Positions 48,200 to 56,394 of a stretch of 64,000 bases of DNA are shown piece by piece. Under the pieces are notes generated by a model that was not told the origin of the DNA, ran no database searches, and saw nothing but the letters and a program-made list of their open reading frames with translations. Each line of letters opens with the position of its first letter. The stretch's first letter is position 1. Position numbers and translations under genes: made by a program. The stretch lies in contig OZ024741.1 of assembly GCA_964016885.1 (NCBI GenBank), positions 81,654,001 through 81,718,000 of the forward strand. The letters are read 5' to 3'. This DNA is from Eledone cirrhosa. Its lineage: Eukaryota.

Positions 48200-48355
48200 T
48201 ATCAGAATGGAGGCGGTAAAAATCAGTGAGACCATTACTCATTAGAGTACACGATACTTGGGGTAGTAGAGTGGGTAATATGAAACATTCAGGAAACCTA
48301 CGGCTTAATTGTTGAAACGGCATAGCTCAGCCGTCGGGGTCCTGATTTTTATTTC
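48200..48355 (+). repeat. TA-inserted hairpin / half-hammerhead family H, copy 1
   Basis: Shares GGGTAGTAGAGTGGGTAATA and GAAACGGC..GCTC.GCCGTCGGGGTC with the other copies. Confidence 0.7.
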
Positions 48356-48677
48356 TATATATATATATATATATATATATATATATAAGAAACGGAGCCA
48401 TTCACAAGGTTTGAATGAAGGAGAAACTTTCCAATTCTGATGCTACCAAACATGTACAACTGGAAGAAATAGCAATGTAAAATAAACACAACGTGCCACC
48501 CGATCCAGGAACTGAAATAATGACGTTATGATCGTGAGAGCGGCGACACCATTATTCATAAAAACTTTGAAGGTACGTGACCTATATATACATACATATA
48601 TATGTATATATATATACATATATATATATATATGACCCTCCCCAACTATAACAATATATATATATATATATATATAA

Positions 48678-48838
48678 ATATATGAAAAGATTCAGGACAC
48701 CGACGGCTGAGCTCCAGCCGTTTCGACAGCCGGATCTAGCTGTCTAAATCTTTTCATATTACTCAATCTACTACCCCAAGCATCGAGTAATCTGGTGCGT
48801 TATGGTCCACCTGGTATCTTCCACACCTTCTTTGTTAT
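48678..48838 (-). repeat. Family H, copy 2
   Basis: Sense sequence ...GACAGC tagatccg GCTGTC GAAACGGCTGGAGCTCAGCCGTC GGTGTCCTGAATCTTTTCATAT; TA-flanked. Confidence 0.75.
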
Positions 48839-49018
48839 AAATATATACACACACAAAATATTTGCAACATCTTGTTGGCCATTAAATATATACATGCAAT
48901 CATAAATCTTTGTTGTTCTCTCTAGCATTTAATACACACACACACACACACACACACACACACACACACACACACACACACACACACACACACACACACA
49001 CACACACACATATATATA

Positions 49019-49217
49019 TAACGAAGGAGGTGTGGTAAGGAACCAGATGGACCATAACGCACCAGAGTACTCAATCCTTAGGGTAGTAGAGTGGGTAATA
49101 GGAAAATGTTTGACCCCGACGGCAGAGCTCAATCCGTTACGACGGCTATTTCTGGACGTCCAGAAATAGCCGTCGAAACGGCTTGAGCTCTGCCGTTGGG
49201 GTCAAACATTTTCCTAT
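49019..49217 (+). repeat. Family H, copy 3 (full hairpin)
   Basis: 60-bp arms spanning 49098-49217, centred on GACGTC, with 3 mismatches. Confidence 0.8.
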
Positions 49218-49397
49218 ATATATATATATATATATATATATATATATTGCTAAACGGAATAGAAAATGTTGACAAATTGTTCACAGTTGAAAAATGGTTT
49301 AATTAGGAATAAAAGAGTATTAGTGATTGTATGGGTTAGTATTCAGTTGTGGTTTTAAGTTTTTAAGTTTTTACCGGTTGCGCATATATATATATAT

Positions 49398-50040
49398 TTG
49401 AAAAGTGCGCAACGTTCTATATAAAACAGAGGTTATAGAGAAAAAGTAGAATTGGAAGCACCATGGAAAACGTTTAAAGAATCTGTTATTTGTTTCTTTT
49501 GTCCGTCAAAGTGACATTATTGAAAACATGAGAGAAACAATTTTTTCTTTTTAAAAAAGGAGTTGTATAATATATATAAAATATATAAAATATCACCGGT
49601 TTCGATGTACCGGTGCAATCCATCTTATCACATATTGAATATTACAACTAAAAAGGATTAAAAAAGAAACATTTTAAATGTAAAATTAGGTGTTGAAGAA
49701 GGTCTGTTCATCTTTGTTTTTGAGAAGAAGACTCGATCCAAAATGGAACCTTATATTTATATATATAGAGAGAGAGGTAGTCGTCGTCGTAGTAGTAGTA
49801 GTTGTTGTAGTGGTGTTAATTGTGTCTTTTTAAAGAACAAAGTTATTTTTAGGGAGAGGATATTTTCTGTATATATGTTTGTGTATCTCAATTGTGTTAA
49901 AGGACTGGTCAAGAGTTTAGATGGGTGTGGCGAAGGGGGGAAATGTAAGCTAGAGACAATTGCTATAGGGGAGAGAGGTGTATAGGATTGTAAAAGAAAT
50001 TCTATTTCAGGCATATGGTTTAAGAGGGTATGAGTGTGTA
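49398..50040 (-). mobile_element. Solo Penelope pLTR/3'UTR fragment related to the PLE B pLTR
   Basis: Terminus GAAAAGTG..AGGTTATAGAGAAAA resembles 22979-23020. Degenerate hammerhead GTGATAA-GATG..CATC-GAAA-CCGG-TG near 49590-49635. A relative on the + strand lies near 55010-55420. Confidence 0.65.
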
Positions 50041-50599
50041 TGTGTGAGTGTATAATATAATATATATATATTTTTTCTCTCGCACGCTGGCCAAGCTGGT
50101 AGGAATTTTTTTTCTCTCTCTCGTCTAGGATTTCACAGAACTTATGTTTACCGAATTCGCAGACCAGATCCCTTCTTCCCCCCGTTAGACCTGTGCGAAA
50201 TTCCTTCCTTGCTCACATTTCAACCAGGTTTGATGGTCTTTATTCTCTCGTTCACGATTTCACCGAATTTAAATTCATAGAAATCTGGGACTTTCACTTT
50301 CTGTTGCTTAAACCATTTTGTTTGTTTACCCTCGCGTCCCCTTTATTTACGTGTCCCAACGACTTTTTTTAGCCGTTGCTCGCACCAACCGGAGGTATAT
50401 GGTCTTTAAAGCGATGAAATGCCTATGATGGTTGGAAGATCACTGATGAAGGACACACTTTTTCATATGTAACCCATTTGCAACGCCGCAGCTCCATTAT
50501 TATCATATTTACATATATATATATATATATATATATATATATATATATATATATATATATATATGTAAATATATATATATATATATATATATATATATG

Positions 50600-53500: not shown

Positions 53501-54560
53501 TACACAAGTATTCCAATACGGCAAGGCCTAATGGATTCCCCTTGCAGTACGTACAATCTGGACACTCACACACACACCTTGGTATTATGCCAATACTATA
53601 TATCATTTCACACCTTTTATTATTAAGGTTTTTGATGTTCTATTGAGAGAATCGTTTTTACTGAAAATATCGAATAATGTACAATATTTTTACTAGTATC
53701 ACAAAAATACTGGTCCACCCACACGCACACACACATTCTCTCACACACATACACACACACACGCACACACATATACACACACACACATATATACACACAC
53801 ACATACACACGCGTACATTAACATACAAAGAGACATATATACACACACACAAACTTCTCCGTATAAGACAAGAGCTGAAAAATATCTTTTAACATGTTAA
53901 AATATCCCCCACACACGTACAGACACATTCCTACTGACCATCCCTCTACCACGAATTACTCTGCTACACACACACACACACACACACACACACACACACA
54001 CACACACACAGACACACACACACACTTGTGTTAATAGGCATTTGAACTGTCAACAGGCTGCGGTTCGCACACACATCCCTGCTGACCATTATCACAACAA
54101 CGAACCTCTTTTCTACTACTACTACTACACACACACACACACACACACACACACACACACACACACATTTGTATTTAAAGACTTATTTTTCAGTGACTTC
54201 TCAATCAGTCGAGACAAACTTACTTTTGGCGCAAAATCAATTTTTAACATTCACATGACCTCTACCGACCAATCAAAATTGTTTTGACCACAAGAATTTT
54301 TTCATACATCTGGAGCCACCATTTTTTTTTACATAAAACAGGTAGAATTTCCAAAAGTAATCAGATTAGAGCAAACATCACGGGCGCTCTATCTCAAAAT
54401 TATTTTTGAAAAGCATTAGAAATGCGCAACCGGTAAAACTTAAAACCAAAACTGAATACTAACCAATACTATTACTAATTTTTACTTATTCCTAATTAAA
54501 CTATTTTTCACTGGGAACAATTTGTCAGCATTTTCTTTTCCTTTTACCAATATATATATG
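50600..54560 (+). mobile_element. Penelope-like element D (Neptune-like), near complete but with stops and frameshifts
   Basis: IINLT..KGLKFTPTP, KEADKG, YGIPKVHK, FDVVNLYSNIP, QKSGTAMG...AP.YANL.MG, RYLDDCF, C....C..C, NLIYVLTC..C...YIGQT. Stop near 53279, then a CA-rich 3'UTR and pLTR running to (TA)n. Confidence 0.9.
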
Positions 54561-54620
54561 TATATATATATATATATTAATTCAAAATATTAATAAAATA
54601 GATATTCTTGTGATCAAGTA

Positions 54621-54687
54621 TATTTTATTATACATATTTCAGAGGTACTGAGTTAACTCCAACAGTACGTCCTCATCAGAGAAAATA
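54621..54687 (-). ncRNA. Type I hammerhead, canonical core (related to the 18021 motif)
   Basis: Sense TATTTTCT-CTGATGA-GGACGTACTG..CAGTACCTCT-GAAA-TATGTA-TA^ATAAAATA, inside a TA-flanked module (about 54580-54805). Confidence 0.72.
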
Positions 54688-55692
54688 AGATGATGCATGA
54701 TATGCCCTGACATAGTAGATGGTTAAGATTCAGTCGGTTGAATGCTTCCAATCTATTGTAAAACTCATTCTTTGATTTATTCATTGAACCTTGTTTAACC
54801 TTTATATATATATATATATATATATATATATATATATATATATATATATATATATATATATATATATATATATATATATATATATATGCGTGTGTGTGTG
54901 TGTGCGTGCGTGCTTATGTCTTATTGTAAGTGTGATGGTATCAAACGTTAGAGAAATATTTTAGGAGGAAAGAAAAAAAAAGAGTTTTTAGGTATATTGT
55001 ATATATATTTGTACTACTACTACTACTACTACTACTACTACTACTACTACTACTACTACTACTACTACTACTACTACTACTGCTGCTGCTACTACTACTA
55101 CTATTATCTCTCTCGTAATATATATAACGTTCCATTTTAGACCGAGTCTTCTTCTCAACAAGAAAGGTGAACAGACCTTCTTAACACTTAATTTTAAATT
55201 TAAAATTTTAAATTCTTTTTTAATTCTTCTTAATTGTGATAAGATGGATTACACCGATACATCGAAACGGTGGATATTTTATATATTATATATACATTAT
55301 AAAACTTATAAAAAAAAAATATTCCTCTCATTTTCTCAAAAATGTCACTTTGACAGACCAAGAAGAAAAAAAGAAAAACAGATTCTTTAAATATGTTTTC
55401 CGTGCTGTTTCCAGTTCTACACACACACACTCTCTCTCTCTCTCTCTCTCTCTCTCTCTCTCTCTCTCTATATATATATATATATATATATATATATATA
55501 TATATATATATATATATATATATATATATATATATATATACATATATATATATACACACAGACATATACACATACATACATATATACATATATATATATA
55601 ATTTTTCCTATATATATATATATATATATATATATATATAGAGAGAGAGAGAGAGAGAATACATGAAACAAAGTTCTGTTTAAATCATTTAT

Positions 55693-55741
55693 CTGCTTAC
55701 AATTGTTTCTTCCAAACCGAGGTTTGCAGTCTTCGGAGCAA
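55693..55741 (-). ncRNA. Degenerate type I hammerhead (CCGAAGA core)
   Basis: Helix I TTGCT/AGCAG, CAAACC/GGTTTG in helix II, palindromic helix III GAAA-CAATTG-TA. The base of helix II is mismatched. Confidence 0.55.
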
Positions 55742-56196
55742 TTATTCAGTGATTTTTAACATACTTGACCTCCTTTTCAACACAAGAGACATATAGAAAC
55801 ATATGTATATATTGACCCACAGTGGGTTGACATCCATTATAATAATATAGCATGGTAATTTACATACAAAGATTACAGTCATATTAAAGGACAAAATTAA
55901 AATTAAAATAAAACATAGGCAGTCCACTAAGATAAAGCAAAAGGAAAGTTTGGAGTAGTCAGTGTATGCAATAGTCACACGTGTGCCATGCACGCGTGTC
56001 CTATTTATACAAGATTATAGTGCGGCAGATTGTTACAAGTAAAACAAGCAGTCAAAGCAGGCAAGAGCATCATGGGGGTGAACTGGTTAAGCATTATTTA
56101 CACACACCTGCACGATATAGAAGCCCGTGTGTGGAGAAACACCAAAAATATCAAAAATATTACGTATCCTTAATACTATATATATATATATATATA

Positions 56197-56394
56197 TAGG
56201 AAAAATTTCAAGACCCCGACGGCAGAGCTCGAGCCGTTTCGACGGCTATTTCTGGACTGAGTCCAAGAATAGCCGTCGAAATGGCTCGAGCTCTACCGTC
56301 GCGGTCTTGAAATTTTTCCTATCACCCACTCTACTAGTATTGAGTATTCTGGTGCGTTATGGTCCATCTGGTTCCTTACCACACTTTCTTCGTT
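56197..56394 (-). repeat. Family H, copy 4 (full hairpin)
   Basis: Hairpin spanning 56197-56322 with a few mismatches, plus the same ~75-nt leader as copy 3; TA-flanked. Confidence 0.8.

What the first reader, a model, noticed from the sequence alone, without database searches (positions are those of the whole stretch)
48200..56394. Four-copy TA-inserted hairpin family carrying only half of a hammerhead ribozyme
Seen: four 155-200-bp copies (48200+, 48678-, 49019+, 56197-) share a leader and the segment GAAA-CGGC(loop)GCCG-TC-GGGGTC (copy 3 has TT for TC). This is the GAAA/helix III/GUC side of a type I hammerhead, with helix I (GACCCC/GGGGTC) and helix II (GACGGC/GCCGTC) partners present. 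None has CUGANGA where it should be. In copies 3 and 4 that position holds the reverse complement of the GAAA-helix III segment, giving a ~60-bp near-perfect hairpin. Copies 1 and 2 look like deletion derivatives of that form. Known: Penelope pLTRs and retrozymes carry hammerheads, and quasi-palindromes can be perfected by template switching. Inference: a ribozyme-derived element lost its catalytic strand yet kept amplifying. It may now be a hairpin-RNA retroposon (possible small-RNA source), or a substrate cleaved in trans by an RNA that supplies CUGANGA.
Basis: partly seen in the sequence, partly recalled or inferred. Interest (0 to 1): 0.8.

Follow-up and report, generated by a model that had tools for sequence, protein, structure and literature searches.

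The report
Penelope retroelement hairpin stubs
The four short hairpin repeats are head-to-head stubs of a 3.5-kb Penelope-like retrotransposon whose full copies carry the whole hammerhead-ribozyme motif, and they likely arise when its reverse transcriptase starts near the front of its own RNA and runs off the end, leaving an estimated hundred thousand or more such stubs in the genome.

Summary
The four copies are real; the family is huge (16,516 exact palindromic junctions; about 150,000 copies extrapolated from 20 in 400 kb). They are the pLTR end plus 80-nt 'tail' of a Hydra-type Penelope-like element (3.54-kb unit, intact 786-codon RT/GIY-YIG frame), inserted head-to-head in (TA)n. The family did not lose its catalytic strand: 8,843 longer copies carry it in cis, mostly as UUGANAA (U3:A8, 6,567) or CUGANAA (2,132), rarely CUGANGA (35). 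The stubs are cut short of it. Their 5' ends pile up at one base inside ribozyme loop II (34 of 100 arms at +1/+2, none beyond -6), at a conserved initiator-like motif, often with an extra G (13 of 56 short arms, 0 of 87 long), and the same stub caps ORF-bearing copies. Best reading: two internal reverse-transcription starts run off the capped transcription start and the two short cDNAs are joined. Inverted copies, tails and U3:A8 cores are known; the fixed run-off point was not found in the papers searched. No RNA data were available. New variant of a known kind.

The parts
49020..49100 (-). Copy 3 tail: 80 nt that follow the pLTR end in the full element and run into the ORF region; ends at a TA of the element, then (TA)n
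   Evidence: Matches L234:3207-3288, which continues into the 786-codon frame; loose (TA)n ends behind L234:3209 and 3289 in contigs
49101..49157 (-). Copy 3 tailed arm: pLTR 3' end from +2 to +58 (helix II 3' strand, GAAA, helix III, GUC site, helix I 3' strand)
   Evidence: blastn to L234, 87% over 143 nt with the tail; HMM hits
49158..49214 (+). Copy 3 untailed inverted arm, +2 to +58, TT at the cleavage triplet, then (TA)n
56199..56258 (-). Copy 4 untailed inverted arm, +1 to pLTR end
56259..56259 (+). Single G between the two arms of copy 4, at -1 of the tailed arm; candidate cap-derived base (inferred)
   Evidence: sequence; parent has T or C here in 87 of 87 long arms
56260..56319 (+). 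Copy 4 tailed arm from +1, decayed
56320..56394 (+). Copy 4 tail (6-nt deletion), then (TA)n
48684..48730 (-). Copy 2 untailed arm, older subfamily (GATCTAGCTGTC type), starts near +12
   Evidence: long relatives L200, L230, L247, L250 with CTGAGGA core
48731..48835 (+). Copy 2 tailed arm (starts near +5, helix III region deleted) and tail
   Evidence: 83% over 87 nt to L234
48203..48305 (-). Copy 1 tail and short remnant of the tailed arm, diverged
48308..48355 (+). Copy 1 untailed arm, then (TA)n
50918..53280 (+). Not part of the family: broken Neptune-like PLE (GLKF, DKG, CX4CxxC motifs; stops and a frameshift) that lies between copies 3 and 4
   Evidence: ORFs; RVT_1 E 4.9e-5; no blastn hit to copy 3; no tblastn hit from the Hydra-type queries at this place

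Best explanation
The four copies are head-to-head pairs of 5'-truncated pLTR ends of a Hydra-type Penelope-like retroelement inserted in (TA)n, and they likely form when its reverse transcriptase starts at two internal sites near the front of the element's mRNA and runs off its capped 5' end. Shown: both arms match the pLTR of a 3.54-kb RT/GIY-YIG element; one arm ends at the pLTR end (+58) and the other 80 nt further (+138), both at a TA; full copies carry the whole hammerhead motif; arm 5' ends cluster at +1/+2 inside loop II. Inferred: +1 is the transcription start of an internal promoter (initiator-like T[C/T]AGT[C/T]); the endonuclease nicks both strands of (TA)n and each nick primes one cDNA (58 and 138 nt); the two cDNA ends are joined by microhomology end joining; the mRNA therefore lacks the UUGANAA strand at its 5' end and is not cut there, while the downstream pLTR holds the complete ribozyme; the stubs are mostly dead-end by-products, and long copies need read-through into a tandem unit.
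For: Parent found: L141, L231-L239 show inverted arms around RT/GIY-YIG sequence; in L231-L239 eight of nine have a tail at the end of one arm only; L234 has pLTR, tail, intact frame, pLTR; tandem units of 3,531-3,546 bp. Arm 5' ends in the first 50 listed palindromes: 16 at +1, 18 at +2, 21 at 0 to -6, none beyond -6, though the pattern allowed longer arms. Of 42 tail-to-ORF copies, 27 run far upstream (-41 or more), 14 are short, 1 has no pLTR; 9 of the 14 have an arm ending at -3 to +5. Base at -1: G in 13 of 56 short arms, 0 of 87 long; G:A 13:3, p 0.02; an untemplated G is attributed to cap reverse transcription in L1/SVA (PMC3287187, passages). A and T of the motif are invariant in 19 chosen long copies across subfamilies while the rest of loop II varies. 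A second, unrelated hairpin family in the window has its tips at TTAGTT too (by eye). Arms within a copy differ by 1.35 of 42 nt against 4.19 between copies (37 of 50 copies scored). Contig depth in run X1 steps up about 20-fold across +1 and down about 200-fold after the tail. Two internal RT starts bounding the tail, extension of both strands and no need for ribozyme cleavage were shown in vitro for Poseidon (PMC11167929); D. virilis Penelope has an internal promoter (PMC2377424).
Against: No RNA run holds the sequence, so the start site is not measured. The G excess drops to 8:3 (p 0.23) when the 5 junctions whose G could come from the other arm are left out. 27 of 56 short arms have T and 13 have C at -1, so starts would have to be spread over several bases. 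Many arms end downstream of +2 (45 of 100 at +3 to +7, censored by the pattern), which needs trimming at joining or later deletion. The initiator consensus is recalled, not tested in this animal. The 50 junctions were chosen by a pattern that limits the gap to 30 nt. Contig depth is not a copy number and X1 may be the assembly's own sample. Loss of the protein-binding site in stubs is inferred from another clade.
Confidence: 0.68

Rival explanations
1. The stubs are a self-propagating non-autonomous family: each keeps the internal promoter and both RT start sites, is transcribed, and is copied in trans by the Hydra protein, which rebuilds the hairpin each time.
For: Stubs vastly outnumber ORF-joined copies (16,516 against 232 exact matches); several pLTR-end haplotypes occur only in short copies in my sample (for example the copy 3 type, 7 short and 0 of 62 long); an internal promoter would lie within the stub (analogy).
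Against: The six commonest haplotypes occur in both long and short copies, and an ORF-joined copy of the copy 3 type exists (L311). Stubs end at the tail, whereas Poseidon needs about 55 nt of ORF beyond its RT starts (172 nt needed, starts at 111-118). A read-through transcript would be a long duplex.
Confidence: 0.17
2. The stubs are ordinary 5'-truncated copies primed at the downstream pLTR, and the shared tip is an RT stop or RNA cut caused by structure in loop II, not a transcription start.
For: PLE insertions are commonly 5'-truncated with an inverted copy (PMC8557442); the predicted fold has an apical stem that includes the tip; longer truncations of many sizes exist.
Against: The apical stem is AU-rich and not conserved while the motif is; the tip stays at the motif in diverged subfamilies and in a second family; extra G at -1; the ribozyme site at +41 is not where arms pile up among the arms examined (these were selected for sequence upstream of it, so this is a weak point).
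Confidence: 0.11
3. One reading: a ribozyme-derived element lost CUGANGA when a quasi-palindrome was perfected, kept amplifying, and is a small-RNA source or a trans-cleaved substrate.
For: Most copies do lack the 5' core strand (0 of 20 copies in the 400-kb sample show it); the hairpin is very stable.
Against: The strand is present in cis in 8,843 longer copies; junctions differ from copy to copy; single arms and arms kilobases apart exist; the substrate strand is buried in the duplex.
Confidence: 0.03
4. A MITE or foldback DNA transposon with 57-bp terminal inverted repeats and a TA target.
For: The hairpin is bounded by TA on both sides.
Against: The 80-nt tail lies outside the 'TIRs' on one side in 43 of 50 copies and on both in none; the arms are the pLTR of an RT/GIY-YIG element; no transposase link was seen.
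Confidence: 0.01

Closest known systems
Hydra clade of Penelope-like elements (Craig et al. 2021, PMC8557442), including Hydra-1_Obim of Octopus bimaculoides
   Same: C-terminal GIY-YIG, DKT, CxCX5C linker, CxxC and CxH around the E and N, no CCHH, (TA)n target, hammerhead in the pLTR; inverted 5'-truncated copy and tail at one end
   Different: Unit 3.54 kb against generally under 3 kb; tail 80 nt against 30-40; RWR for RWK; ribozyme differs from the one listed for Hydra-1_Obim, and three short DNA motifs of this family are absent from that supplement; cores are mostly U3:A8 or C3/A8; stubs dominate
Poseidon PAc of Anolis (Frangieh et al. 2024, PMC11167929)
   Same: Two fixed ends that bound a tail at the pLTR-ORF junction; AT-rich target; hammerhead upstream of them
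   Different: Other clade; the parts read do not report a fixed run-off point or mass head-to-head stubs
Schistosoma Cercyon PLE hammerheads (Cervera and De la Pena 2014, PMC4209133)
   Same: U3-A8 core variant; long helix II; pairs of motifs on opposite strands 100-700 bp apart; most motifs from truncated copies
   Different: Those are minimal motifs with almost no helix III; here helix III has 5 bp, and the commonest form is cut inside loop II so that descriptor searches would miss it
Adineta vaga Penelope elements (Arkhipova et al. 2013, PMC3846280)
   Same: Head-to-head pLTRs of about 200 bp with palindromes at the junction, optional tail, initiator-like sequence in the pLTR
   Different: Explained there by self-priming on an antisense template; here the junctions fit two sense-templated cDNAs joined end to end
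Non-LTR retrozymes (Li et al. 2026, bioRxiv 10.64898/2026.07.22.740005)
   Same: Non-coding, PLE pLTR-derived, 150-400 bp scale
   Different: Retrozymes are direct tandems with a complete motif in each unit; the stubs are inverted pairs with half a motif (one 299-bp tandem derivative, L336, does fit)

Membership tests
EN+ Penelope-like element (parent) | Single ORF with RT and C-terminal GIY-YIG endonuclease | tested here: met
   786-codon open frame with YRDD and VIY...YIG motifs read from the translation; 661 homologues; Pfam scan gave 0 families, so the domains rest on motifs
EN+ Penelope-like element (parent) | Partial tandems (pLTRs), inverted 5'-truncated copy, tail at one end | tested here: met
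   tail on one side in 43 of 50 stubs, none in 7, both in 0
Hydra clade | DKT, CxCX5C linker, no CCHH, CxxC and CxH near E and N, RWK | tested here: met
   SDKTG, CNCPDRSIC, one Cys in the core, CNLC and CKH in P0001 against PMC8557442 section 11; RWR instead of RWK
Hydra clade | Insertion into (TA)n | tested here: met
   (TA)n on both sides of most of the 30 best hits and on at least one side of nearly all
Hydra clade | Placement in the Hydra clade of an RT tree | not tested
   No tree built; likeness to Hydra-1_Obim judged by eye from supplement passages
Type I hammerhead (long copies) | Three helices around the core, GAAA and NUH site | tested here: met
   MFE three-way junction, z -2.87; 89.4% of cells paired, 17 double changes, 0 of 500 shuffles, on 19 hand-picked copies; no Rfam hit
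Type I hammerhead (long copies) | Watson-Crick pair between core positions 3 and 8 | tested here: inconclusive
   U:A 6,567, C:G 35, but C/A mismatch 2,132 and U:G 109
Type I hammerhead (long copies) | Self-cleavage | not testable with these tools
   needs in vitro assay or RNA ends
Type I hammerhead (window copies) | 5' core strand in cis | tested here: not met
   absent in all four
Non-LTR retrozyme | Direct tandem with a complete hammerhead in each unit | tested here: not met
   window copies are inverted pairs; only L336 meets it
MITE | Element bounded by its TIRs with a target duplication, transposase partner | tested here: not met
   one-sided tail outside the repeats; parent is a retroelement
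Non-autonomous PLE derivative (SINE-like) | Copies give rise to further copies | tested here: inconclusive
   junctions 42 distinct of 50; haplotypes mostly shared with long copies; no genome-wide tree

The most novel reading that the evidence does not exclude
Hydra-type PLEs start transcription inside their own hammerhead, which splits the ribozyme at the mRNA 5' end, and every mRNA can be copied by twin internal priming that runs off the cap; this would explain head-to-head pLTR palindromes of PLEs in general without antisense templates, and the stubs, keeping promoter and start sites, may also spread on their own as a new kind of palindromic SINE that seeds the genome with on the order of 100,000 long RNA hairpins.
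Probability: 0.2. Interest if true: 0.8.

Novelty: new variant of a known kind. Interest (0 to 1): 0.52.

Why it matters
How PLEs make their head-to-head inverted ends is an open question (PMC3846280, PMC8557442). This family offers tens of thousands of junctions with a fixed end point, which makes the run-off model directly testable by CAGE, junction counts and the existing in vitro system. The spread of a C3/A8 subfamily (2,132 copies) is a natural test of whether ribozyme cleavage matters for PLE spread. In practice such stubs would be annotated as MITEs, unclassified SINEs or miRNA-like hairpins (inference), and where transcribed they would be double-stranded substrates for RNA editing or small-RNA pathways (inference, no data).

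Tried and rejected
Rfam scans of the window and of a long copy found no hammerhead model. A first CTGANGA search with a 4-30 nt gap gave 50 matches; the 20 read were junction or flank coincidences; the gap was too short for the true helix II, and the 42-70 nt search gave 128, of which a minority are true canonical cores. My first idea of clean C3:G8 to U3:A8 covariation failed at genome scale (2,132 C/A copies). A splice acceptor at the YAG of the motif was considered and rejected: only 3 of 100 arms end at +3 and no shared upstream exon appears. The Neptune-like PLE between copies 3 and 4 was considered as partner and rejected (its window relative at 24397-26643 aligns to P0001 only weakly). 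Pfam names no family for P0001. No RNA holder listed among public runs. A first G tally (20:3) included loci picked by a pattern containing GA and was replaced. Earlier findings of this scan: nothing by words or by sequence. PMC3088659 gave no passage on positions 3 and 8 under my terms.
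Full report
Observation. The four copies exist at about 48203-48355, 48684-48835, 49020-49214 and 56199-56394, each in (TA)n. Copies 3 and 4 hold a near-perfect hairpin of about 57 bp; copy 3 folds at -121.4 kcal/mol, z -14.2. 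The GAAA-helix-GUC segment is there and CUGANGA is not. The GACCCC and GACGGC 'partners' follow from the palindrome and prove nothing. The genome is 3.0 Gb; I take the host for an octopus-like animal by inference only.

Abundance. A DNA search gave 2,555 first-look candidates, 40 scored. By eye 13 of the 20 have parts of both arms and none shows the 5' core strand. Exact patterns give 16,516 palindromic junctions and 55,009 arms; both cover only the younger subfamilies.

The parent. Some junctions run inward past the tip; a pattern for that extension hit 1,648 places, and most of the 30 loci read continue into a shared upstream sequence. Pairs of such arms lie kilobases apart in inverted orientation around RT and GIY-YIG coding sequence. 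L234 shows the order pLTR, 80-nt tail, open frame of 786 codons, pLTR; tandem units repeat every 3,531-3,546 bp. The window copies align to this pLTR and tail at 82-92%. The protein has DKT, CxCX5C, CxxC and CxH, RWR and no CCHH, the marks of the Hydra clade (PMC8557442 section 11), which inserts in (TA)n. Hydra-1_Obim is listed for O. bimaculoides but has another ribozyme sequence and lacks three short motifs of this family (supplement passages). No tree was built. The Neptune-like element between copies 3 and 4 is unrelated.

The ribozyme. Long copies read helix I, [C/T]TGAN[A/G]A, helix II with a long loop, GAAA, 5-bp helix III, TC, helix I and fold as a three-way junction. On 19 hand-picked copies across subfamilies 89.4% of cells pair, with double changes at four pairs including the 3-8 pair (related sequences inflate this control). 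Genome counts in one context: U3:A8 6,567, C3/A8 2,132, U3:G8 109, C3:G8 35, with 29 hits in the reversed controls together. U3-A8 is a described PLE variant (PMC4209133). The large mismatch class speaks against strict covariation and leaves activity open. So the family kept the catalytic strand; the stubs stop short of it.

How the hairpin forms. In the first 50 palindromes listed, 42 junctions are distinct; repeated ones use short microhomologies and several hold templated or untemplated inserts. Arms within a copy differ at 1.35 of 42 nt against 4.19 between copies; 76 variant cells are symmetric and 50 are not (37 of 50 copies scored). The tail is on one side in 43, absent in 7 and on both in none. 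This is the known PLE layout of an inverted truncated copy with a tail at one end (PMC8557442), and in vitro a Poseidon protein extends both target strands from two internal RNA sites that bound the tail, without needing ribozyme cleavage (PMC11167929). Here the two sites are TA dinucleotides at +58 and +138, also seen as (TA)n loose ends in contigs.

Why the tip is fixed. Numbering the A of T[C/T]AGTCC as +1, arm ends among 100 arms fall at +1 (16), +2 (18), 0 to -6 (21, several by microhomology) and +3 to +7 (45, censored); none lies beyond -6. Of 42 tail-to-ORF copies read (of 232 matches), 27 extend to -41 or further, 14 are short and 1 lacks the pLTR; 9 of the 14 have an arm ending between -3 and +5, so the window element is also the 5' cap of full-length copies (one of the 9, L344, looks longer by eye). 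The A and T of the motif are invariant in 19 copies while loop II varies; it resembles the insect initiator TCAGTY (recalled), and D. virilis Penelope has an internal promoter (PMC2377424). After dropping loci picked by GA-containing patterns, the base at -1 is G in 13 of 56 short arms and 0 of 87 long; G:A is 13:3 (p 0.02) but 8:3 (p 0.23) without five ambiguous junctions; at +2, +3 and +5 G is not the leading foreign base. An untemplated G is attributed to the cap in L1/SVA (PMC3287187). Copy 4 has such a G at 56259. A second family in the window behaves alike. Summed contig depth in run X1 goes from 1.4e5 to 3.5e6 across +1 and from 2.3e6 to 1.1e4 after the tail; one 60-nt contig of depth 1.9 from another organism folds back in the arm; these are weak supports, as depth is no copy number and X1 may be the source sample. 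No RNA run was listed.

Verdict. That the copies are head-to-head PLE stubs is close to certain (about 0.95). That the tip is the capped start and the stubs are run-off products is my best mechanism (0.68), against self-propagation (0.17) and a structural stop (0.11). Known: inverted copies, tails, U3:A8 cores, octopus Hydra elements. Not found in nine literature searches: mass stubs with a fixed end inside the ribozyme loop, or this family; the library misses subscription journals and Repbase or Dfam entries.

What I read. PMC8557442: passages, section 11, supplement passages. PMC11167929 and PMC4209133: parts 1-2 of 4. bioRxiv 10.64898/2026.07.22.740005: part 1 of 5, no supplement. PMC3846280, PMC2377424, PMC3287187, PMC3088659: passages. 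PMC13282606: part 1 of 3 and passages (no mention of hairpin, Hydra or palindrome in the main text); its repeat library was not seen and may contain this family under another label.

Noticed in passing
window 27547-27803 (also 20436-20551, 22857-22948): A second, unrelated hairpin-plus-tail family in (TA)n with a GAAA-helix segment; long copies read ...TTAGTTTCAGAAG and short ones have their tips at or just past that AGTT, some with G before it (46 arms listed). Its tail lies beside the Hydra-type ORF at 21743-22880.
   Followed up: partly
L336 (G000:C2:356029300-356032700): Direct tandem of 299-bp units (seven full repeats between eight arms) derived from this PLE; internal units hold the complete U3:A8 hammerhead with a shortened loop II; starts at about +1 and ends at the tail in (TA)n: a retrozyme-like derivative.
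   Followed up: partly
genome-wide: Core series across subfamilies: CTGATGA and CTGAGGA in diverged ones, CTGAGAA (3/8 mismatch, 2,132) and TTGANAA (6,567) in abundant ones; the order in time was not tested.
   Followed up: partly
window 50918-53280 and 24394-26643: Two Neptune-like PLEs (63% alike at DNA level), each flanked by inverted copies of its 3' end (49446-49814 with 55064-55420; 23014-23612 with 26837-27418), with a GTGATAAGATG...CATCGAAAC hammerhead-like stretch in the former.
   Followed up: partly
window 49250-49390 and 54422-54550: Two copies of another short (TA)n-inserted element, one with a small inverted 5' piece; probably the end of a further PLE family.
   Followed up: no
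window 17790-18126, 18238-18321, 58980-59442: Further near-perfect long hairpins (167, 42 and 185 bp arms) next to or around (TA)n; the first contains CTGATGA and GAAA on one arm.
   Followed up: no
window 21743-22880 and 31509-33121: Two broken Hydra-type ORFs, 33-55% identical to the parent protein by tblastn, of other families.
   Followed up: no
L337-L342: Near-identical head-to-tail arrays of 2-4 full units, several with intact 784-786 codon frames, which suggests recent activity.
   Followed up: partly
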